This document shows positions 3,973-63,757 of a DNA stretch of 64,000 nucleotides, one piece after another. The translations under genes were made by a program, and so were the position numbers. Origin of the DNA: Escherichia phage fDHCT2; the sequence record OR427838.1; one strand, given 5' to 3'. Each line of letters begins with the position of its first letter. Within the stretch, counting starts at the first letter, position 1. A model generated the notes under the pieces. The model ran no database searches. It was given only the letters and a program-made list of their open reading frames with translations, and had not been told where the DNA came from.

Positions 3973-4002
3973 TTTATTTTCCTCTCGTTTGTTGATAGGG
4001 CA

Positions 4003-4032
4003 ATAATATCACTACCCTACCATAGTGTATAC
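4003..4032 (-). promoter_or_regulatory. T4-type early promoter
   Basis: minus GTATAC (4027-4032), 18 nt, TATTAT (4003-4008), then CCCTATCAAC. Confidence 0.55.
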
Positions 4033-4046
4033 TGTTTTTTTAAACT

Positions 4047-4613
4047 TTATGCAAAATGAATATCAGCGTACTCAACGATAAAGCTCTCAGGAACAACCTT
4101 AAAAGTTCCAAGGAACACGATATTATACAATTTGACACCTTCTTCAACCCACTGGTCGGTGATGTAACCGGACATACTAGTGGTTTCATAAGTCGGACCG
4201 TACTTGCATTTGTATTCAAACGGTTTAGGTGAAACGAAAAAGACACCTTTACCTAATTTCCATTTGAAATCAACGCCGACATGAGATTGGTCAATAGTTT
4301 CAACGTCTTGAGCTACTACGCCACGGATATCATTGCTTTCACATACATACCCATCATGGGATTCAACTTCTTCAACTACAGGAGCGATGTATCCGGTAAA
4401 TTCAGTCGATTCCAAGAATTTAGCACGCACATAACCGAATTGAGTTTCAGTCTGGGGATTTTTAGGAATGATACGAACTTTTACTTCATAATTTTCTTCA
4501 CTGACACCTTCTTTAAGTTGGATGCTAACAACTTCAACTAAACTGCCCGCAGCTTTTGAACGAGACTTTTTGGATACACGAACGATACTGCCGATATCGG
4601 AAATAGTAATCAT
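4047..4613 (-). CDS. hypothetical protein, paralog of 4687-5238
   Basis: 188 aa; shared C-terminal ...TDQW(V/I)E(E/D)GV(K/E)L(Y/L)N(I/V)V...VVP(E/R)S... Confidence 0.6.
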   Translation of the reverse strand: MITISDIGSIVRVSKKSRSKAAGSLVEVVSIQLKEGVSEENYEVKVRIIPKNPQTETQFGYVRAKFLESTEFTGYIAPVVEEVESHDGYVCESNDIRGVVAQDVETIDQSHVGVDFKWKLGKGVFFVSPKPFEYKCKYGPTYETTSMSGYITDQWVEEGVKLYNIVFLGTFKVVPESFIVEYADIHFA

Positions 4614-5238: not shown

Positions 5239-5744
5239 ATTGTTCTCAATTCAATAAAATCTACGAGTTCGGCATAGGATTTGCGGAACATTACTTGGCG
5301 GTCACCAATGACAACCTCATCTTCAGGTATTTCGTAAACAGCAAGATAGAATCCTTTAGAAGATAATTCTTCACGCTCTTCACGAGTGAACCAGCGCATC
5401 ATATCATACTCGCTGGCAAAAGCAAAATGGTAGAGATTAACAAACCAACCTGGAATATAATCATCACAGCCTTCATAATCAGGCTGGTTCCACTTAGTTC
5501 TAATGCTTTTATTAGAATTTTCCACCAACAAATTGTCTTGACCGGGTAGCGGAATATTTTTATTATTGGTATGGTGGTGCCTAAAATTGGGTCTGTCGAA
5601 ACCTACTTCCAATAACCAGCCTTCACTCCATTCGTCAAATGAGCCTCTATACGGTGTTAATTGGCGGCACTGTAGGTGGGTGATTGCTATGACATCGCTG
5701 TTATCTAAGATACTAAACGATGACTCAACTCGATAAATTTTCAT
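5235..5744 (-). CDS. hypothetical protein
   Basis: 169-aa ORF, RBS GAGGAG. Confidence 0.55.
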   Translation of the reverse strand: MKIYRVESSFSILDNSDVIAITHLQCRQLTPYRGSFDEWSEGWLLEVGFDRPNFRHHHTNNKNIPLPGQDNLLVENSNKSIRTKWNQPDYEGCDDYIPGWFVNLYHFAFASEYDMMRWFTREEREELSSKGFYLAVYEIPEDEVVIGDRQVMFRKSYAELVDFIELRTI

Positions 5745-5771
5745 TTTGTTCTCCTCATGTTGATAGGGTAG

Positions 5772-5800
5772 ATAATATCATGTCATGAGGAGAAGTAAAC
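5772..5800 (-). promoter_or_regulatory. T4-type early promoter
   Basis: minus GTTTAC (5795-5800), 17 nt, TATTAT (5772-5777), CTATCAAC; flanked by CTCCTCATG/CATGAGGAG repeat. Confidence 0.65.
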
Positions 5801-5804
5801 ACTT

Positions 5805-6479
5805 TTATCGATTTTTTACACTTAACGGGTCAGGATTCTCAGGGACATCTTCCAGGCCCAAGGCATAACGTTGAGCATATTTCAGCATCAAGATGTCCTT
5901 GGCACAGTCATGGATAGAGTCATGAGCAACAAAGCCATTCAATGTTCCGTTAGGCAGAGGACACATGCTCAATCCGCGAGTCAGTGAATAGGCTTCGATA
6001 GCCGTACGGATATCACGTTGGTTCCAGAATTTAACCGGTTCTAATTTACTGGTATCAATTTCATTCTCAGGAACACCTTCAGAACGATAAGCATCGCGAA
6101 TAAGGTCGACTAAGATAGGAAAGTCAAATGACATTCCACGACACCACATCTGTGATTTCCACTGGTCTACATCATTTTTACGGCAATATTCTAAGAAGTT
6201 GCCGATGCCGATAGAAGTGCTCACATCCATTTCGGACGGCGCCAGGTTTTTACGTGCTTCGGGCCCTTGTTCTTTCCACCACTGTAAAGTGCTTTTAGAA
6301 AACAGTCGTTTATCACGTTGAGAAGCTAGGTCAAATTTAATACGAAGGCCTCGTTGAGTAAGCTCTTCAAACGTTTCTACTACCTCTGGATTTGGGTCGT
6401 AAGCAATTACGGCTAGGTCAATAACCGCCGCATTTTGGGTAGTGGCAAAGGTTTCGAAGTCAATAATTACATCTTTCAT
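5805..6479 (-). CDS. dexA: exonuclease A (DEDD 3'-5' exonuclease)
   Basis: 224 aa; MKDVIIDFETF... exonuclease motif; T4 position upstream of dda. Confidence 0.85.
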   Translation of the reverse strand: MKDVIIDFETFATTQNAAVIDLAVIAYDPNPEVVETFEELTQRGLRIKFDLASQRDKRLFSKSTLQWWKEQGPEARKNLAPSEMDVSTSIGIGNFLEYCRKNDVDQWKSQMWCRGMSFDFPILVDLIRDAYRSEGVPENEIDTSKLEPVKFWNQRDIRTAIEAYSLTRGLSMCPLPNGTLNGFVAHDSIHDCAKDILMLKYAQRYALGLEDVPENPDPLSVKNR

Positions 6480-6715
6480 TTAACGTACCTCATAAGGTCA
6501 CGGATTTGACCAACGGTGTAGTCTTCAATATAAACTGAAGAGATATTGTCGTCCATTAGACGCTGTATTGCGATAAAATCACTTTCAATCTCTTTAAGAG
6601 AATGCAAGACCTTATGAGCCTTGCCACGGATATTTGTATCGTCTTGGTTGACCTTAATAATATATTCTGTTTCAAATTTCAACTTATAAAATTGGTCTTT
6701 AGTTACTTTAATCAT
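6476..6715 (-). CDS. hypothetical small protein
   Basis: track ORF trimmed to ATG 6715 (RBS GAGGAAAAT) to avoid overlap with dda. Confidence 0.45.
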   Translation of the reverse strand: MIKVTKDQFYKLKFETEYIIKVNQDDTNIRGKAHKVLHSLKEIESDFIAIQRLMDDNISSVYIEDYTVGQIRDLMRYVK

Positions 6716-6722
6716 ATTTTCC

Positions 6723-8054
6723 TCAAACATAGTAGGCATCAGTACGAGCACGAGTAATACTAACATAAGCTAGCTGTGAAGCTAAATTCGCATCAGCCAT
6801 GTGCATACATGGGGTATAGATGAAACTGTTCTGGACAGTAAGACCCTGTGATTTATGGACGGTACTCACCGGAAGAGCCCGAACCTTAGTGAACATTCGC
6901 TTGGCTTTCCAGAAATCAGCCCACTTAGGTTTCTTACCTGTTCCACGCATAGCTTTGTACTCTGTAGCAACCTTAGCCAAGAAATAATGGAACTTCTCAA
7001 CTGAAGCCTCATCGATAACCTTTAAATGCTCTACATAGTACTCGTCGTCTTCATCAACAGATTCTACTTGTAGGTCCCAGTAATTAATCATTTGACGAGT
7101 GCCTACGTCCTTAGCAGACAAGAACAATGAGGTATGATTCACATCCAGAATACGAACCATTTGCCCGTTATTAAAAATGGTTTCAGAGAATTTCTTACCG
7201 TCGTATTCGAGCTCCTTCATAAAAGGCTCTTGCATCACGAGGATTTCACCCTTGATATAAGGTGCATCAGTTTCATAAAGCTTTTTACGAATAATGCTAT
7301 TCAGCTTTTCAACCGATTTATTTGTATAAGCAAACATCCTATTTTCAAATAAGGCATCCGCGTCTTTTACGATGGAAAAATAATTCATCATAAAATCTTT
7401 TAAAGCCGTTTGAGATTTAAAACCATGGACCCCGTGACCTTCGAATATACAATCTCGGAACCATCCACCATTACGGATTTCAGTAGCAACCTCAATGATA
7501 GGGGCATTACTACGCATTACTTCAGTAAGGTGCAGCTGTTTAATTTTAGGATGGGTAAAGAATGGAGACAACTGAGGACTACCATCACTTCCTGGTTCTA
7601 CAGGTTGTAACTGTGCTCGGTCGCCAATCCCTAGTACAGTGCACCATGGTGGAACCGACGCTTCGATAATCTTAAACAACTTGCCGTCAATCATCGAGCC
7701 TTCGTCGACCACAAGAACATTACATTTGCTCAAATCAGGAGCTTCACGCTGTTCAAAAATATCCTGGTCTTCGTATGTAGTCGGGTTAATCTTTAAGATT
7801 CGGTGGATTGTTGATGCTTCTTGGCCTGCGAGTTTCGACAATACCTTCTTGGCCGCGTGTGTAGGTGCGGTCAAAATAACTCCGAGTTCGCCATTCTTGA
7901 CTAAGTGGTCAAGAATAAATTTAGTAAGGGTCGTTTTACCTGTACCCGCAGGACCATTCAATGTAATCCATTCACCCTTACGTCGTTTAATAGCTTCAAT
8001 GATTTCTTTAAAGGCCGTCCGTTGCCCAATATTCAAGTCTTCAAATGTAATCAT
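6723..8054 (-). CDS. dda: Dda DNA helicase
   Basis: 443 aa; ...ITLNGPAGTGKTTLTKFI... near-collinear with remembered T4 Dda. Confidence 0.95.
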   Translation of the reverse strand: MITFEDLNIGQRTAFKEIIEAIKRRKGEWITLNGPAGTGKTTLTKFILDHLVKNGELGVILTAPTHAAKKVLSKLAGQEASTIHRILKINPTTYEDQDIFEQREAPDLSKCNVLVVDEGSMIDGKLFKIIEASVPPWCTVLGIGDRAQLQPVEPGSDGSPQLSPFFTHPKIKQLHLTEVMRSNAPIIEVATEIRNGGWFRDCIFEGHGVHGFKSQTALKDFMMNYFSIVKDADALFENRMFAYTNKSVEKLNSIIRKKLYETDAPYIKGEILVMQEPFMKELEYDGKKFSETIFNNGQMVRILDVNHTSLFLSAKDVGTRQMINYWDLQVESVDEDDEYYVEHLKVIDEASVEKFHYFLAKVATEYKAMRGTGKKPKWADFWKAKRMFTKVRALPVSTVHKSQGLTVQNSFIYTPCMHMADANLASQLAYVSITRARTDAYYV

Positions 8055-58504: not shown

Positions 58505-59094
58505 TTACGGCATTCCTTAATAAACTCATTTAAATTATGTTTGTTTTTACCTTCGTCGTAAAGACGTTGTTGACGACGTAAACGCCATGGCATTTCAATA
58601 GCCAAGCACCAAATACTTAAAGCAGCGCCAGCTGTGAAAAGATTCATTAATCCGGCGCCAATAATAGTTCGTTCTAGCGCATCATTCCAGTTAGCATCGA
58701 TTAAAAATGAACTCAACACTAACATTGGAAGTAAAGTAATAAAATACGCTACAACATATCGTCCGAACGTAAGCCATTCAGTATCGATGAGCTTAGCCTT
58801 TCCATCTTGGAGACAAATATACTTATCGTCAGTGCGGGTGATTTTCTTTACCGGTTGCCAACCATTTACGATATAACCCATTCTGAACTCCTCAATTAAA
58901 AGCTGTTTCATTTCGGCAGTACAACCTGACCAATCTATTGTACTGGCTGAAATTCCTTCATCACCGTCATCGATATTTCGCCAGGACTTTTTAATAATCA
59001 TAGTCTCACCACTTGGGATAATAATTCCGGCATTTTCCGACCGACGGATGAAGTTTGTATCAATACCCATACAACCAGGTTCATAAAGGGCCAT
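58501..59094 (-). CDS. membrane protein
   Basis: 197 aa; TM segments. Confidence 0.5.
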   Translation of the reverse strand: MALYEPGCMGIDTNFIRRSENAGIIIPSGETMIIKKSWRNIDDGDEGISASTIDWSGCTAEMKQLLIEEFRMGYIVNGWQPVKKITRTDDKYICLQDGKAKLIDTEWLTFGRYVVAYFITLLPMLVLSSFLIDANWNDALERTIIGAGLMNLFTAGAALSIWCLAIEMPWRLRRQQRLYDEGKNKHNLNEFIKECRK

Positions 59095-59780
59095 TACCAG
59101 CCCTCCATAGGAAATTCCAGATATACTTGAGCATTAACGCGGATTTCATTTGTAATCTTTTTAACACGGTCGGTATTACGAGACACACGACCAAACCAGC
59201 GCCACCCGTTACTTACTGCACGAGAACCTGTATGCCATGTTTGCCAATCAAACTGGAGTAACGTGCGGTCAGGAGCATCCCACTTGGTTAATTCATTGGA
59301 CTCAATTTTTTCCAGAACTTCTTTATGCCACTGGCGATAGATAAGTTCGCCTTCAGGAATCTGACTGAACTGTGCAGTTCCGGTTGCAAAATGAGTAGGA
59401 CACACATCAGCATTAACAAGACCAAGAATATGTTCAGAATGGTATCGAGGATTATCATAATCAGGTTGCCCTGCGGTAATAAAGTGTTGACCCACCGGAA
59501 TATCTGGACGTGGTACATCATCATGGTGGAAGCCTGGAATTGCAGGGTACCAGCCGGGCATTAACATGTGTACACGGGAATCAAATACGCATTCAACGGC
59601 TTTCCACTCATCAGGGAGATTAGTAATAAAGCTACGAGTAATAGGACCACCATTTTGTGCAGCAAAATTCAAATCACAGTTAAAGAACATAGGCTCGTTT
59701 TTAATATCATCATTAGAAATATGACCTGCAAAACCACCTACTGCACGAGCTTTAGAATTAAAAGTTTTTGGACCGTTCAT
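59094..59780 (-). CDS. hypothetical protein
   Basis: 228-aa ORF. Confidence 0.55.
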   Translation of the reverse strand: MNGPKTFNSKARAVGGFAGHISNDDIKNEPMFFNCDLNFAAQNGGPITRSFITNLPDEWKAVECVFDSRVHMLMPGWYPAIPGFHHDDVPRPDIPVGQHFITAGQPDYDNPRYHSEHILGLVNADVCPTHFATGTAQFSQIPEGELIYRQWHKEVLEKIESNELTKWDAPDRTLLQFDWQTWHTGSRAVSNGWRWFGRVSRNTDRVKKITNEIRVNAQVYLEFPMEGW

Positions 59781-60085: not shown

Positions 60086-61045
60086 TTATTTTTCGAAAGG
60101 ACGAATTAAATGATGGTTATCTTGGAAACGCTTGATGTAGTCGTTTTCACCTAAAGTCTTATACATATTCACTACAGCTTGGTAGTTTTCCCAGGCGTAC
60201 TCGCGGAACCAACCTGAAGTGATTGAGGTACACACTTTCTCAAGAGCCATATAAAAACTTAATGATGGTGAAATATTGAAGTCATTAGGAACCTGTGAAC
60301 GTTCTAGTGCCAGGACACAAGTTTCTTCATATACACCAGCCAGTTTAATAGCTTCAGGCAAAGCCTCGAACTTCTCACGAGAGGTCATGACTTCAGAACC
60401 TTCCTTCATATAAAAGGTATATGCAGGGCGTCCAGCCAATGCTACTGCTTCATGAATAGAGTCATGGTCCAGCGTATAAATGGTATCATTAAAGAACGAT
60501 GATTTGTTTACGTCCAATTTAGGGTGAGAATAGCTCAACGTTTCTTTTTGACGTTGCAACATAATTTCCCGGAGTTCTTCGTTCAGGGTGATACCTTTAT
60601 TACGAAGGTATTTGATGTGGGACATAGTTTTCAAGAAGAACGGATTATTCTTCAGGAAACGATGAGAGGTTTTGATAGCCAGACAGATATCAGGGGTTGC
60701 CCAATAGAAACCAGTAAGACGGTCCTTTTTAATATGATTTTCAGCATATTTCAGGAGACGATAACTTGAAGTGAAATCTTCGTCTTGAAGCTCGCCAGTA
60801 ATTTCTCGTACGTTAGTCAGAGCACGGACAATATAAGCTTCAAAATAGGTTTCTTTACCATTGTACATACATTTAAAGGCCTGGACATCAGGGTTATCCA
60901 CAGGAACATGAGCGCCGAACATCCGGGCTTTAAAGTGATTCCATGAGCCTTGGTCGGCAATGAAATCCCAATCAGAATTTTCGATATGCTTACTTTCAAT
61001 CAGACCAGCGTGGTGCAGTGCACGAGAACCAATAACTAGCATCAT
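60086..61045 (-). CDS. hypothetical protein
   Basis: 319-aa ORF; RBS GAGGAAAAT. Confidence 0.55.
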   Translation of the reverse strand: MMLVIGSRALHHAGLIESKHIENSDWDFIADQGSWNHFKARMFGAHVPVDNPDVQAFKCMYNGKETYFEAYIVRALTNVREITGELQDEDFTSSYRLLKYAENHIKKDRLTGFYWATPDICLAIKTSHRFLKNNPFFLKTMSHIKYLRNKGITLNEELREIMLQRQKETLSYSHPKLDVNKSSFFNDTIYTLDHDSIHEAVALAGRPAYTFYMKEGSEVMTSREKFEALPEAIKLAGVYEETCVLALERSQVPNDFNISPSLSFYMALEKVCTSITSGWFREYAWENYQAVVNMYKTLGENDYIKRFQDNHHLIRPFEK

Positions 61046-61058
61046 AATATTTTCCTCA

Positions 61059-61226
61059 TTAATAAAGACGAGTTACTTCATATTTACCCAGTTCAGATTT
61101 TTTTGCTTCAATACGCGTTGCGGCTAGATTAGCAGCCTCTAGTGAAGAAAATTGGACCACTTGGGAAGTATTCTGCCTTACGCCACCTTGTGGGTGAGTA
61201 ACAAAAACAATAAGAACATTATACAT
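61059..61226 (-). CDS. hypothetical small protein (55 aa, hand-called)
   Basis: MYNVLIVFVTHPQGGVRQNTSQVVQFSS...; RBS GAGGAAAA. Confidence 0.4.
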   Translation of the reverse strand: MYNVLIVFVTHPQGGVRQNTSQVVQFSSLEAANLAATRIEAKKSELGKYEVTRLY

Positions 61227-61247
61227 AATATTTTCCTCAGAGTAAAC

Positions 61248-61487
61248 TTAAATTTCAGCAACGTAATCGTTATGCAATTCCCACATATCATCAGAATTAT
61301 TCTTAATGATAGGAATTATCTCATTAGAGATTTCTTCTGCATAAGGGTCATTGATACAGTGGGCATCTTCAAAACGAACACCGTAATCAGACTTCTTATA
61401 GGCAAAGCCATAAATCTTTTTAAACTTGGCACGACTAATTCGTACCGGCTCATCAGACTTATCAGACAATGGAGAGTAATACCACAT
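61248..61487 (-). CDS. hypothetical small protein
   Basis: 79-aa ORF; RBS GAGGAG. Confidence 0.5.
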   Translation of the reverse strand: MWYYSPLSDKSDEPVRISRAKFKKIYGFAYKKSDYGVRFEDAHCINDPYAEEISNEIIPIIKNNSDDMWELHNDYVAEI

Positions 61488-61514
61488 ATGTTCTCCTCAT
61501 GTTTGTGTAGGGTA

Positions 61515-61544
61515 ATAGTAACACAAGTTTTTAGAGTTGTACAT
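61515..61544 (-). promoter_or_regulatory. T4-type early promoter
   Basis: minus ATGTAC (61539-61544), 18 nt, TACTAT (61515-61520). Confidence 0.5.
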
Positions 61545-61860
61545 CACTTCTGCAATATTCTAAAAATAATTTATCGTTGTCTACGGTATCCCAACGACGC
61601 CAAGATGGGTTCCAGACCAAAGCGTTGTCACCACAATCATTGAGCTTAAAATGGTCGTAGTACATAGCTATGCGTCTAGTCTCGTCACCGGAGAACCCTA
61701 GTATAGGCTCGCCGTGGGTATGATACATATGATGGTGCATTGAGAGGTCACATTTATAAAACATCTCACGTTTACCACGGACGAACAAGAAAGCTTGCCC
61801 ATTCATATAGAATTCTTTATCCGTTTTCAAAAGATATTTGAATACCGAATCTTTGTGCAT
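61531..61860 (-). CDS. hypothetical protein
   Basis: track ORF trimmed to ATG 61860 (RBS AGGAGG). Confidence 0.5.
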   Translation of the reverse strand: MHKDSVFKYLLKTDKEFYMNGQAFLFVRGKREMFYKCDLSMHHHMYHTHGEPILGFSGDETRRIAMYYDHFKLNDCGDNALVWNPSWRRWDTVDNDKLFLEYCRSDVQL

Positions 61861-61890
61861 AAGTCCTCCTACCACATCCATGTGATTAAA

Positions 61891-62118
61891 TTATTTTCCT
61901 AACGAAATACGGGTAGGTTTTTTACCAAAATAGTCTTCATAAGAACCATCTAAACGACCTGCTTTAGACCGACAATATGAATCGTACTTTTTGTAATAAG
62001 TCATCTCAGTATTATAACGCGGGTGTCTATCAGCCATAATAATACTTAATGGCCAACCTTTGGCATAATCGCGAAGACTGTTTATTTTACGAATGTATCT
62101 TTTCTTTAATTTTAGCAT
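61891..62118 (-). CDS. hypothetical small basic protein
   Basis: 75-aa ORF. Confidence 0.45.
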   Translation of the reverse strand: MLKLKKRYIRKINSLRDYAKGWPLSIIMADRHPRYNTEMTYYKKYDSYCRSKAGRLDGSYEDYFGKKPTRISLGK

Positions 62119-62336
62119 GAGCTCGGATACCAGATTTTACCATCAGAACGAGCAACGAAGGTTCTGCCGGCTTCTTCGCCGTAACAAGAGCTATTCAGCC
62201 AATCTTCAAGACGAACTTCACCATCATAATCATCAAGCTCAACACCAAAATCTTGTGCAGAAGCCATATCTTTTACTTTCTTATACAGCGCAGCCAGTTC
62301 AAGAGCAGCTTTTTCTAATTCATTAATATCAGACAT
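62112..62336 (-). CDS. tandem small-protein family member 5 (C-terminal ...WYPSSC)
   Basis: 74 aa; RBS AAGGAAA. Confidence 0.55.
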   Translation of the reverse strand: MSDINELEKAALELAALYKKVKDMASAQDFGVELDDYDGEVRLEDWLNSSCYGEEAGRTFVARSDGKIWYPSSC

Positions 62337-62345
62337 TTTATTTCC

Positions 62346-62576
62346 TTAGCAAGACATAGAGGAGTTAAACCAGAAACCCTGGCCATCATTGATACCGTAA
62401 TCACTGCGAATCCAGTCATATTCTTCGTATTCTTCGCTAGAAGCCGGAATATAACGCTGGAAACGGTCTGCGGCGTGTAAATTAAAAATTTCGCCGGTTT
62501 TATCGGCCAGCTGCTCACCTTCACAGATTAGTGCACGGATTTGGTCTTCGATTTCTTTAACAGTTTTAGAAGTCAT
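62346..62576 (-). CDS. tandem small-protein family member 4 (C-terminal ...WFNSSMSC)
   Basis: 76-aa ORF. Confidence 0.55.
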   Translation of the reverse strand: MTSKTVKEIEDQIRALICEGEQLADKTGEIFNLHAADRFQRYIPASSEEYEEYDWIRSDYGINDGQGFWFNSSMSC

Positions 62577-62585
62577 TTTATTACC

Positions 62586-62783
62586 TTAGCATTCGTAAGA
62601 GGAGGACACCCAAGAGGTACCACTAATTGTAATACAACCATTATAAAGCGTGATATGACGTTCCAGGTCACGAACACCGTCGATATAGATATCAGCTTCT
62701 TCGCGTTCTTCTTTACAAATCTGGATAACGTTTTCAATAGCTGCGGCTGCAGTACGGATTGCACAATCTAGTTCACGAGACAT
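62586..62783 (-). CDS. tandem small-protein family member 3 (C-terminal ...WVSSSYEC)
   Basis: 65-aa ORF. Confidence 0.55.
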   Translation of the reverse strand: MSRELDCAIRTAAAAIENVIQICKEEREEADIYIDGVRDLERHITLYNGCITISGTSWVSSSYEC

Positions 62784-62792
62784 AATAATTCC

Positions 62793-63074
62793 TTAACATT
62801 CAGAAGAAGAGGATACCCATCCACCATTTTCTAGGCTGGTAGTGTAATCATGTTGGTTTACAATAGCGTACTGAGCTTCACCGTATTCTTCCCAGTGGGC
62901 CAGGTCAGCTTTCAAGGCGCCAGGAGAATAATAGTCACCGCCCATACCGCGAGCAGGGTATATATTAAAATGAGTCTCATATTTGTTGGCAATTTCCTCG
63001 GCACGACGAATAGCTTTATGGATATCATTTACTGCAGCAGCCAGCTCTTTATTTTTACGGTAATCATTCATCAT
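62793..63074 (-). CDS. tandem small-protein family member 2 (C-terminal ...WVSSSSEC)
   Basis: 93-aa ORF. Confidence 0.55.
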   Translation of the reverse strand: MMNDYRKNKELAAAVNDIHKAIRRAEEIANKYETHFNIYPARGMGGDYYSPGALKADLAHWEEYGEAQYAIVNQHDYTTSLENGGWVSSSSEC

Positions 63075-63083
63075 AGCGTTTCC

Positions 63084-63374
63084 TTAGCACATTGCCGAAG
63101 AGGAGACCCAAGCACCAACTGTAACGACGCCATTTTCAACTTCACCACCATTGTTTTCAATTTCATCTTTAAACCACTGGGAGCATTCATAACCAACAGG
63201 GTAGTATGTACGTCCTGAGCCATAATCACCTGTTCCGAATTGAATACCGTACTTATCGGCAATAGCTTCACATTTGGATTCGATGGTATCCACTTTATTC
63301 AGAAGAGCATAGATAGCCTTTTCTGCAGATTTCTCGTCATTGTATTCAGGGATTTCAATTTCAATTTTATTCAT
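63084..63374 (-). CDS. tandem small-protein family member 1 (C-terminal ...WVSSSAMC)
   Basis: 96-aa ORF. Confidence 0.55.
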   Translation of the reverse strand: MNKIEIEIPEYNDEKSAEKAIYALLNKVDTIESKCEAIADKYGIQFGTGDYGSGRTYYPVGYECSQWFKDEIENNGGEVENGVVTVGAWVSSSAMC

Positions 63375-63757
63375 GATTTACATTCCTTAATAAAGGTTTC
63401 AAGGTCATTACGTTTGGTTTGTTTTACATACTCATTATAATTAGCCATCTCTAAAGCATATCTCTTTTTACGTGGCTTGTTTATCCTATTGGTGTTGATA
63501 ATATCCAAGACCAGAGGGATAAAGTATCCTATTAAAGCTGGAACCCAAATCCAGGCAAGGTTCAATTCAAATAGGTTTTGTGTCGTATCATTAACGACTC
63601 CACCAGCAATTAGTCCAACAAATCCGGCAATCGTACCAGTGACAAGTCCAGCGAATAAAGAAATAGCGATATCATAATCTGCTAATGCGTAACCAGGGTC
63701 GGTTTTACTAGGCTTATACATTTTGGACCTCTTTGGCGTATTCGCGGCATTCAGCAA
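63371..63757 (-). CDS. membrane protein
   Basis: 128 aa; TM segments. Confidence 0.5.
   Translation of the reverse strand: MLNAANTPKRSKMYKPSKTDPGYALADYDIAISLFAGLVTGTIAGFVGLIAGGVVNDTTQNLFELNLAWIWVPALIGYFIPLVLDIINTNRINKPRKKRYALEMANYNEYVKQTKRNDLETFIKECKS

What the first reader, a model, noticed from the sequence alone, without database searches (positions are those of the whole stretch)
62112..63374. Five-gene tandem family of small proteins ending in W-x-S-S-x-x-C
Five consecutive 65-96-aa ORFs, each with its own RBS, end in WYPSSC, WFNSSMSC, WVSSSYEC, WVSSSSEC and WVSSSAMC. The bodies are divergent but the terminal W-(V/F)-(S/N)-S-S-x-x-C with cysteine as the last residue is kept. A conserved terminal Cys after a serine-rich tract could be a modification or metal-binding site. 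Tandem diversification of small early proteins is typical of anti-defence or host-takeover arsenals. I cannot place this family from memory.
Basis: seen in the sequence. Interest (0 to 1): 0.6.

Follow-up and report, generated by a model that had tools for sequence, protein, structure and literature searches.

The report
Cys-tailed small proteins beside nucleotidyltransferase
Five neighbouring small phage genes really do share a conserved tryptophan-serine-serine-cysteine tail, and in many different phages such genes sit just upstream of one uncharacterised nucleotidyltransferase gene, so the two are probably an unstudied two-part system.

Summary
Five minus-strand genes (62112-63374) end in WYPSSC, WFNSSMSC, WVSSSYEC, WVSSSSEC and WVSSSAMC. 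The invariant serines use both TCN and AGY codons across relatives, so selection acts on the protein.

The window is a JS98-like Dhakavirus (T4-like). The genes belong to a large family of small acidic proteins (PHROG 899/4882, function unknown). It has at least 260 clusters at 50% identity. Of 181 sequences fetched, 169 end in Cys, with the tail G-x-W-x-[SAPN]-S-S-x-x-C. There is no Pfam, NCBIfam or PADLOC match, and a confident model has no PDB fold match.

My best reading is that the tail is the common handle by which this enzyme binds, and probably nucleotidylylates, a set of diversified small proteins. This rests on synteny only. The mechanism is inferred and nothing has been tested experimentally.

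The parts
63084..63374 (-). Tail-family gene 5 (96 aa, ends GAWVSSSAMC). It is the first gene of the array, and its ATG overlaps the stop of the upstream 128-aa membrane-protein gene (ATGA).
   Evidence: ORF. phrog_899 E 9e-24. Body-only profile score 64.8 bits. AF2 model pLDDT 87.5: long N-terminal helix, small sheet, and W in the last strand.
62793..63074 (-). Tail-family gene 4 (93 aa, ends GGWVSSSSEC)
   Evidence: phrog_899 E 6e-20. Body-only profile score 55.0 bits. Orthologues P0015-P0024.
62586..62783 (-). Tail-family gene 3 (65 aa, ends TSWVSSSYEC). It belongs to a different PHROG, and its body is not significantly similar to the others.
   Evidence: phrog_4882 E 2e-36. Body-only score 3.6 bits, within the shuffle range. 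It is missing, precisely at the gene junction, in viral contig L011. The RB69 ORF136c orthologue ends WVSSSYSC.
62346..62576 (-). Tail-family gene 2 (76 aa, ends GFWFNSSMSC)
   Evidence: phrog_899 E 5e-15. Body-only score 40.5 bits. Orthologues P0019, P0023 and P0026-P0034.
62112..62336 (-). Tail-family gene 1 (74 aa), of the short-tail, double-motif subtype: an internal DWLNSSC (residues 45-51) plus the terminal IWYPSSC. Its stop is overlapped by the ATG of the next gene (62116-62118).
   Evidence: phrog_899 E 4e-10. Both motifs are conserved in orthologues from other T4-like genera, Aeromonas phage CC2 and Klebsiella phage KP13-26.
60086..61045 (-). Conserved downstream partner gene: 319-aa DUF7277 (N-terminal) + DUF7275 (C-terminal) protein, a predicted Pol-beta-type nucleotidyltransferase of the MenT/AbiEii/ANT kind.
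63434..63458 (-). Match to a T4 middle-promoter consensus (MotA box TGCTTTA, 12 nt, TATAAT), about 60 nt upstream of the first array gene.
   Evidence: 9 matches in the window against 3.1 expected, 7 of them on the transcribed strand. This is a consensus match only, not evidence of function.
61059..62118 (-). Four small intervening genes (75, 116, 79 and 55 aa) between the array and the nucleotidyltransferase. They are lineage-specific fillers and not part of the conserved core.
   Evidence: PHROGs 7065, 9796, 3723 and 20278, all of unknown function. tblastn finds them only in close T4-like relatives and not in the distant loci that keep the tail genes and the enzyme.

Best explanation
The five genes are members of a phage-restricted family of small (about 65-140 aa), acidic (median pI 4.5), folded proteins. 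The family's defining feature is the C-terminal tail G-x-W-x-[S/A/P/N]-S-S-(x-x)-C-COOH. Together with the nucleotidyltransferase (NTase) encoded downstream (60086-61045) they form a conserved two-part module, transcribed on the same strand before the late phase.

Proposed mechanism: the tail is the common handle that lets one enzyme deal with a set of different small proteins. The Trp anchors the tail on the small protein's last beta-strand. The Ser-Ser hydroxyls and the terminal Cys (thiol plus free carboxylate) enter the NTase active site, and an NMP is most likely transferred to a tail serine. The divergent bodies would then give each paralogue a different target or role.

Shown here: the family, the tail, selection at the protein level, the fold prediction, the gene linkage, and the NTase fold with intact catalytic residues. 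Inferred: physical interaction between the two proteins, the tail as the contact or acceptor site, the nucleotidylylation chemistry, and the timing of expression.
For: - **The tail is real and selected as protein.** 169 of 181 fetched family sequences end in Cys. Among those 169, W is at -7 in 166, and S is at -4 and at -3 in 168 each. The invariant Ser use both codon families.
- **The tail outlives the body.** Bodies of two of the five paralogues are no longer detectably similar, yet they keep the tail. A whole subfamily carries two copies of the short motif.
- **Linkage to the enzyme.**
  - All 27 viral loci fetched through the enzyme carry 1-5 tail genes upstream, on the same strand, within about 2.5 kb.
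  - All loci fetched through the small proteins that are long enough carry the enzyme downstream.
  - The same holds in Pseudomonas Otagovirus phiPsa397 (4 copies), Acinetobacter Ac42 (2 copies), Klebsiella Stephanstirmvirinae KP13-26 (5 copies) and 4 of 4 long MAG contigs.
  - The intervening genes are not conserved.
- **The enzyme looks active.** It has an NTase fold with G-S, D-x-D and E invariant. NTases of this structural neighbourhood transfer NMP to hydroxyl groups (tRNA 3'-OH, aminoglycoside or lincosamide OH; descriptions, and PMC10435456 for MenT).
- **Precedent for a small upstream partner.** In the MenAT1 toxin-antitoxin pair, the small 68-aa MenA1 binds and controls the MenT-fold NTase MenT1 (PMC10435456).
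- **Distinct paralogues are kept.** The paralogues are 15-28% identical to one another, and each has orthologues across genera. This fits different roles with one shared handle better than it fits redundancy.
- **Natural decay.** In RB69 the frameshifted copy has also lost an invariant Ser (tail WVSSPALC).
Against: - No interaction or modification has been shown. The link rests on gene neighbourhood alone.
- Shorter homologues of the enzyme in actinophages (Streptomyces phage Annadreamy, Gordonia phage Abscondus) have no tail-family gene nearby. The enzyme can therefore work without these proteins, and they are not its only substrate, if they are a substrate at all.
- In the AF2 model the Trp is in a strand and the S-S-S turn is semi-ordered (last block pLDDT 75). 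The tail could therefore be a structural cap rather than a free acceptor peptide.
- About 6% of fetched family members have one residue after the Cys, so a free Cys carboxylate is not absolutely required.
- The enzyme is mildly acidic (median pI 6.2), as are the small proteins, which gives no electrostatic argument for binding.
- The sampling of loci is biased towards contigs that my own searches could find.
Confidence: 0.4

Rival explanations
1. Antitoxin-like inhibitors. The small proteins bind and silence the nucleotidyltransferase without being modified, as MenA1 does for MenT1. This would make the module a phage-borne toxin-antitoxin-like or timed-release system.
Against: One inhibitor would be enough, yet up to five diverged paralogues are each conserved across genera. 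MenA1 works through its central helix, and its C-terminal part is dispensable; here the conserved part is the extreme C-terminus. The family profile shows no sequence similarity to any PDB chain, MenA1 complexes included. Pfam does not place the enzyme in DUF1814.
Confidence: 0.2
2. Independent effectors. The small proteins act on host or defence targets on their own (anti-defence, host takeover, decoys). The tail is then a structural, oligomerisation, redox or metal-bridging element, and the nearby NTase is only a co-transferred or co-regulated neighbour.
For: The location is a hyperplastic accessory region between e.2 and e.3, which is absent at that position in T4. The proteins are small, acidic, diversified and tandem. 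The Trp is part of the fold in the model. In actinophages the enzyme exists without these proteins.
Confidence: 0.25
3. Ribosomally made peptide precursors (RiPP-like). The tail is a core peptide that is cross-linked (for example Ser to dehydroalanine, then a thioether with the terminal Cys, since S-x-x-C-COOH recalls AviCys or lanthionine motifs) and perhaps released.
For: There are tandem small genes with one conserved Ser/Cys-rich end next to a single enzyme gene. The resemblance of the S-x-x-C end to known thioether-forming ends is from my memory of lantibiotic chemistry and was not tested.
Against: The pattern is inverted relative to RiPPs, which usually have a conserved leader and a variable core. 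The proteins are predicted to be folded domains (pLDDT 87.5). No radical-SAM, LanB/LanM, YcaO, protease or exporter gene is conserved nearby. The short-tail subtype S-S-C has no ring-forming spacing.
Confidence: 0.04
4. Nucleotide-level artefact. The shared end reflects a conserved gene-junction or RNA element (stop codon plus Shine-Dalgarno, coupling hairpin, recombination repeat) rather than a protein feature.
For: Within Dhakavirus the tail-plus-junction DNA is about 69% identical among the five genes, and TAA-GGA forms the next gene's ribosome-binding site. One relative lost gene 3 exactly at such a junction.
Against: The invariant Ser are encoded by six different codons from both families, Cys by TGC or TGT, and the stop by TAA, TGA or TAG. 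The downstream sequence varies freely in distant phages while the peptide tail stays the same. The last gene of the array keeps the tail with entirely different codons and a different junction.
Confidence: 0.02

Closest known systems
MenAT1 toxin-antitoxin pair of Mycobacterium tuberculosis (MenT1 nucleotidyltransferase + 68-aa MenA1; PMC10435456)
   Different: There is no sequence similarity on either side. The phage enzyme has a much larger, highly conserved C-terminal helical domain (DUF7275). The small proteins come in arrays of 1-5 and are defined by a C-terminal W-S-S-C tail that MenA1 lacks. The module is phage-restricted: only 5 hits in 185,579 species genomes, all on MAG contigs. Toxicity has not been tested.
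AbiEi/AbiEii and MenA3/MenT3, MenA4/MenT4 (DUF1814 nucleotidyltransferase systems)
   Different: In those systems the partners are about 200-aa wHTH-kinase-like antitoxins, not small tail-tagged proteins. Pfam assigns DUF7277/DUF7275, not DUF1814. PADLOC has no match.
HepT/MntA type VII toxin-antitoxin system, in which a MNT nucleotidyltransferase adenylylates its partner protein (recalled from memory, not tested here)
   Same: It is a conceptual precedent for a Pol-beta-type NTase whose substrate is the hydroxyl group of a small partner protein encoded next to it.
   Different: There the acceptor is a Tyr of a HEPN RNase. No HEPN domain and no homology were detected here. It serves only as a mechanistic analogy.
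Small-molecule nucleotidyltransferases ANT(2'') and LnuA
   Different: They are resistance enzymes that act on antibiotics, with no partner proteins and no DUF7275-like C-terminal domain.
PHROG 899 / PHROG 4882 (phage protein clusters of unknown function)
   Same: The five proteins match these profiles (E 4e-10 to 2e-36), so the sequences are already clustered in a public resource.
   Different: The clusters carry no function or description and no link to the tail motif or to the enzyme. The five genes are split over two PHROGs.

Membership tests
Tail family (PHROG 899/4882; no curated name) | Significant match to the family profile | tested here: met
   phrog_899 E 9e-24, 6e-20, 5e-15 and 4e-10 for the genes at 63084, 62793, 62346 and 62112; phrog_4882 E 2e-36 for the gene at 62586. 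An exhaustive profile search found 260 representatives at E<=1e-3.
Tail family (PHROG 899/4882; no curated name) | C-terminal G-x-W-x-x-S-S-(x-x)-C with Cys as the last residue | tested here: met
   All five genes have it. It is present in 169 of 181 fetched relatives.
Tail family (PHROG 899/4882; no curated name) | Homology of the body (helix + A-D-x-x-G-x-x-F + Y-G-M-G-G-x-Y-Y-P core) independent of the tail | tested here: inconclusive
   Met for three genes (40-65 bits). Not significant for the genes at 62112 and 62586 (2-4 bits, against a shuffle maximum of 4-6).
Tail family + DUF7277/DUF7275 module | A DUF7275 gene downstream on the same strand within about 2.5 kb | tested here: met
   In the window, the array is 1.0-2.0 kb upstream of 60086-61045. 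The same arrangement holds in 41 loci.
Pol-beta-type nucleotidyltransferase superfamily (for the 319-aa neighbour) | hG[GS] motif, D-x-D pair and a third carboxylate on the core sheet | tested here: met
   G5-S6, D24-x-D26 and E68 are invariant in 50 homologues. In the model they lie on beta1/helix, beta2 and a later strand.
Pol-beta-type nucleotidyltransferase superfamily (for the 319-aa neighbour) | Structural similarity to solved members | tested here: met
MenAT / AbiE (DUF1814) toxin-antitoxin systems | Toxin matches the DUF1814 sequence family | tested here: not met
   Pfam gives only DUF7277 and DUF7275. PADLOC gives nothing. A PDB sequence-profile search gives nothing.
MenAT / AbiE (DUF1814) toxin-antitoxin systems | Enzyme is toxic and is neutralised by the upstream gene product | not testable with these tools
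   This needs expression experiments.
MenAT / AbiE (DUF1814) toxin-antitoxin systems | Partner homologous to a known MenA/AbiEi antitoxin | tested here: not met
RiPP precursor peptides | Conserved leader with a variable core, plus a neighbouring maturase of a known class | tested here: not met
   The conserved part is the C-terminal end and the rest varies. No rSAM, Lan or YcaO genes occur in the conserved neighbourhood. The proteins are predicted to be folded.
Known anti-defence small proteins with solved structures (e.g. Acb2, Tad1, Tad2, Ocr-like mimics) | Fold or sequence similarity | tested here: not met

The most novel reading that the evidence does not exclude
The module is a previously unrecognised phage protein-tagging system. 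A MenT-like nucleotidyltransferase recognises a portable C-terminal W-x-S-S-(x-x)-C tag and covalently modifies it, either by Ser-O-nucleotidylylation or by chemistry that involves the terminal Cys. This would switch on or redirect a whole set of otherwise unrelated small effector proteins during infection. If so, it would define both a new post-translational modification motif and a new logic for phage accessory arsenals: one enzyme, many tagged effectors.
Probability: 0.25. Interest if true: 0.85.

Novelty: new variant of a known kind. Interest (0 to 1): 0.62.

Why it matters
T4-like and many other large lytic phages carry hundreds of small genes of unknown function. This work gives a sequence rule (the tail) and a gene-neighbourhood rule (the enzyme downstream) that tie a whole class of those genes to a single enzyme.

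- The class spans at least 260 clusters at 50% identity, and the enzyme is found in 733 phage records.
- This turns a set of hypothetical proteins into a testable two-component system.
- Model phage T4 has neither part in the 72 kb examined, which may explain why the system was never studied.
- If the enzyme modifies or is controlled by the tail, this would be a new way for phages to regulate or deploy several effectors at once.
- It would also extend MenT/AbiE-type nucleotidyltransferase biology from bacterial toxin-antitoxin and abortive-infection systems to the phage side.

Tried and rejected
1. **Curated families.** Pfam, NCBIfam and PADLOC scans of the five proteins gave no significant family.
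3. **RNA or junction artefact.** Rejected on codon usage. The in-frame arrangement of the five genes is not conserved in other phages, which show 8-nt or overlapping junctions, so readthrough or a polyprotein is not supported.
4. **Locus search with the broad alignment.** The search for related loci with the broad family alignment failed, because no stretch was conserved enough. I worked around this by searching with the enzyme and by looking up contigs of distant members.
5. **Literature.** Searches for RB69 ORF names, phrog_899, DUF7275/DUF7277 and AbiEii or DUF1814 in T4-like phages returned nothing relevant.
6. **A third conserved component.** The 228-aa gene downstream (59094-59780) and the four intervening genes are limited to T4-like relatives at tblastn sensitivity. 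I therefore left them out of the core module.
7. **Fusions.** None was found between tail proteins and the enzyme. The longer tail-family members only add an N-terminal coiled-coil-like extension.
9. **Electrostatic tRNA-mimic idea.** The enzyme is not basic (pI about 6.2), so there is no support.
10. **T4 itself.** No homologue of either part lies in T4 positions 1-72,000. The rest of the T4 genome was not scanned.
Full report
**1. The observation**

Five ORFs lie head to tail on the minus strand:

| Gene | Coordinates | Length | C-terminal end |
|---|---|---|---|
| g1 | 62112-62336 | 74 aa | WYPSSC |
| g2 | 62346-62576 | 76 aa | WFNSSMSC |
| g3 | 62586-62783 | 65 aa | WVSSSYEC |
| g4 | 62793-63074 | 93 aa | WVSSSSEC |
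| g5 | 63084-63374 | 96 aa | WVSSSAMC |

- Each ATG follows a GGA/GGT Shine-Dalgarno element that begins directly after the preceding TAA.
- g5's ATG overlaps the stop of the upstream 128-aa gene. g1's stop is overlapped by the ATG of the next gene.
- In a six-frame scan of the 64-kb window, W-x-x-S-S-(xx)-C occurs seven times, six of them in this cluster. All five terminal occurrences are these genes.
- Alignment leaves W, S, S and the last C as the only invariant columns.
- g1 has the tail without the two-residue spacer, plus an internal second copy, DWLNSSC.

**2. Protein-level or nucleotide-level conservation?**

I collected 107 distinct tail-coding sequences from the window and related loci.

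- The two invariant Ser use TCT, TCC, TCA and TCG, and also AGC and AGT.
- Cys uses TGC or TGT. The stop is TAA, TGA or TAG.
- The sequence after the stop varies freely in distant phages.

All five genes share one reading frame in this window, but that is not conserved elsewhere and has no significance.

**3. Where the window comes from**

- The region is 88-92% identical to Dhakavirus genomes such as JS98, JS10, Bp7 and CLB_P2.
- In JS98 the same five genes are orf125/126-129, annotated as hypothetical. They lie between e.2 and e.3/e.6 in the stretch between gene e and the tRNA genes.
- T4 has e.2 directly next to e.3. No homologue of either part of the module lies in T4 positions 1-72,000.
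- RB69 has ORF136c-139c at this position.

**4. The family**

- Four proteins match phrog_899 and one matches phrog_4882. Both clusters have unknown function.
- Pfam, NCBIfam and PADLOC give nothing.
- tblastn with g5 alone finds 379 phage records from Escherichia, Aeromonas, Enterobacter, Klebsiella, Serratia and others.
- A profile search of 1.84 billion representatives finds 260 clusters at E<=1e-3. Nearly all alignments run to the last residue of the protein.
- Of 181 fetched sequences, 169 end in Cys. Among those 169, W is at -7 in 166, S at -4 and at -3 in 168 each, and G at -9 in 118. Twelve sequences do not end in Cys; most of these carry one extra residue after it.
- Median length is 88 aa and median pI 4.5. 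Half of the sequences have the terminal Cys as their only Cys.
- The consensus body is a long helix ending in A-D-x-x-G-x-x-F, then Y-G-M-G-G-x-Y-Y-P, an acidic linker of variable length, and the tail.
- Longer members only add an N-terminal coiled-coil-like extension.
- With the tail cut off, g5, g4 and g2 still match a profile built without them (65, 55 and 40 bits). g1 and g3 do not (2-4 bits, within the shuffle range). The tail is thus better conserved than the rest of the protein.
- g1 represents a subfamily with two short motifs, an internal [DE]-D-W-x-[NS]-S-[SD]-C-[YF]-G-E and a terminal W-x-x-S-S-C. This is conserved in other T4-like genera, in Aeromonas phage CC2 and in Klebsiella phage KP13-26.

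**5. Structure of the small protein**

- AlphaFold2 on a 35-sequence alignment gives a confident model of g5: pLDDT 87.5, pTM 0.72.
- The model has helix 13-41, a small sheet and a second helix. The tail Trp sits in the last strand, S-S-S-A forms a short turn, and the last block has pLDDT 75.
- In particular, no solved anti-defence protein or antitoxin matches.

**6. The constant neighbour**

Looking at annotated relatives, I saw that the tail genes are always followed by a gene of about 300-320 aa: RB69 ORF134c, PG7_136, Aes012_062, CC2 gp173 and KP13-26 _00075. In the window this gene is 60086-61045 (319 aa), with Pfam DUF7277 (E 2e-26) plus DUF7275 (E 3.5e-77), phrog_2141.

Tests of the linkage:

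- All 27 viral contigs fetched through this protein, down to 42% identity, carry 1-5 tail genes upstream on the same strand within about 2.5 kb.
- All loci fetched through the small proteins that are long enough carry the DUF7275 gene downstream. These include metagenomic contigs with three or four tandem tail genes directly in front of it.
- Pseudomonas Otagovirus phiPsa397 has four tail genes and Acinetobacter phage Ac42 has two.
- Four of four long MAG contigs show the same arrangement.
- Genes between and around the two partners are not conserved beyond close relatives.
- Exceptions: actinophages Annadreamy and Abscondus have a shorter homologue of the enzyme and no tail gene.

The enzyme is found in 733 phage records. 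In 185,579 species genomes it occurs on only five contigs, all from MAGs. I read these as probably mis-binned phage contigs, so the family looks essentially phage-restricted.

**7. What the neighbour is**

- Fifty homologues keep G5-S6, D24-x-D26 and E68 invariant, together with a dense set of invariant residues in the C-terminal domain (K124, H127, H173, D192-H193-D194, H197, C242, C271 and others).
- The AF2 model is confident (pLDDT 91.4).
- There is no sequence-level match to PDB chains or to PADLOC models.

It is therefore a divergent Pol-beta-type nucleotidyltransferase of the MenT/AbiEii/ANT neighbourhood, with its catalytic residues intact. MenT enzymes add nucleotides to tRNA 3' ends. 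MenT1 is blocked by MenA1, a 68-aa helical protein encoded beside it (PMC10435456).

**8. Expression**

- The array contains no late-promoter motif (TATAAATA) and no terminator-like site. Sigma-70-like matches are at chance level.
- A MotA-box-type middle-promoter match (TGCTTTA, 12 nt, TATAAT) lies at 63458-63434 on the coding strand, about 60 nt before g5. Such matches are enriched in the window, 9 against 3.1 expected.
- Together with the overlapping or 9-nt junctions, this suggests pre-replicative co-transcription and translational coupling. It does not prove either.

**9. Copy-number dynamics**

- Copy number ranges from 1 to 5.
- One Dhakavirus-like contig (L011) lacks g3 exactly at the tail/junction boundary.
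- In RB69 the g5 orthologue is split by a frameshift into ORF139c and ORF138c, and its tail has decayed to WVSSPALC.
- The tail-plus-junction DNA of the five genes is about 69% identical. It could serve as a recombination substrate; that is an inference.

**10. Interpretation**

*Shown:* a large, phage-restricted family defined by a selected C-terminal tail; a new-looking fold; and tight, directional, long-range-conserved linkage to a catalytically intact MenT-like nucleotidyltransferase.

*Inferred:* the two interact through the tail.

I favour the tail as the recognition element, and probably the acceptor, for the enzyme, with the Ser hydroxyls as NMP acceptors (confidence about 0.4). The reasons are:

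- The tail is the only thing all array members share.
- Several diverged paralogues are each maintained, which argues against a purely redundant inhibitor role.
- Enzymes of this structural neighbourhood act on hydroxyl groups.

Rival readings:

- A MenA1-like inhibitor role (0.2).
- A role independent of the enzyme, with the tail as a structural, redox or metal-bridging element (0.25). The actinophage exceptions and the Trp packed into the fold keep this reading alive.
- RiPP-like processing (0.04).
- A nucleotide-level artefact (0.02).

**11. Novelty**

- The sequences are already in databases as hypothetical proteins and as PHROG clusters of unknown function.
- I found no paper on them, on DUF7275/DUF7277 or on the linkage. 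Only open-access literature could be searched.
- The closest known arrangement is a MenT-type enzyme with a small upstream partner, so I rate this a new variant of a known kind.
- If the tail proves to be a covalently modified tag, it would be categorically new.

**12. Limits**

- No co-folding or experiment was possible.
- The loci were sampled through my own searches and within at most 10 kb of flank.
- Whole-genome co-presence was not computed.
- The second half of the T4 genome was not scanned.

Noticed in passing
window 60086-61045 (-): A 319-aa DUF7277+DUF7275 protein with invariant G-S, D-x-D and E. Its model matches MenT1, MenT3 and ANT(2'') nucleotidyltransferases. It is uncharacterised, yet present in 733 phage records, including Acinetobacter, Pseudomonas, Vibrio and actinobacterial phages.
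   Followed up: yes
window 62112-62336 (-), residues 45-51 and 68-74: Gene 1 carries two copies of the short motif (DWLNSSC and IWYPSSC) 23 residues apart. Both copies are conserved in orthologues from other T4-like genera, Aeromonas phage CC2 and Klebsiella phage KP13-26. This looks like an ancient extension or internal duplication of the tail.
   Followed up: partly
L004 (RB69) 3989-4295: RB69 ORF139c and ORF138c together are a frameshifted orthologue of gene 5. The tail of the second piece reads WVSSPALC, so an invariant Ser has been lost. This is either a decaying pseudogene or an old sequencing error.
   Followed up: partly
L011 (IMG/VR UViG_2974497520) 6378-6881: A close relative lacks gene 3. 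Gene 4's stop is followed by the usual 9-nt junction and then gene 2. This suggests deletion by recombination between the similar tail-plus-junction sequences.
   Followed up: partly
window 59094-59780 (-): A 228-aa protein (phrog_1843, unknown function) just downstream of the nucleotidyltransferase is unusually conserved. It is 75-93% identical across T4-like genera and 80% identical to Aeromonas phage CC2. The adjacent enzyme, by contrast, is only about 44-46% identical in the Aeromonas phages listed in the protein search.
   Followed up: no
L041/L042 2204-5001; L008 (CC2) 437-1615; L045 (Annadreamy) 2064-2723; L046 (Abscondus) 5707-7834: RNA-repair or tRNA genes recur near the module or the enzyme: Rnl1 plus PNKP, rnlA, an RNA ligase, and a tRNA array. 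In T4-like phages the module also lies a few kb from the tRNA cluster. This may hint at an RNA or tRNA substrate for the enzyme, or it may be coincidence in accessory regions.
   Followed up: no
window 63434-63458 (-): A MotA-box-like middle-promoter match (TGCTTTA, 12 nt, TATAAT) lies inside the 3' end of the upstream 128-aa membrane-protein gene, about 60 nt before the array. Matches to this pattern are enriched in the window (9 against 3.1 expected).
   Followed up: partly
GenBank records MK295203/NC_055783 (vB_EcoM_005), OR842557 (04086), vB_KpnM-VAC36: In some records these small genes and the enzyme are annotated as 'tail completion protein', 'prohead assembly scaffold protein' or 'major capsid protein'. 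Nothing here supports those names, and they look like automated mis-annotations.
   Followed up: no
window 63371-63757 (-): A 128-aa predicted membrane protein (phrog_2330) lies directly upstream of the array and is translationally coupled to it (ATGA overlap). It is variable among relatives, at 35-77% identity.
   Followed up: no
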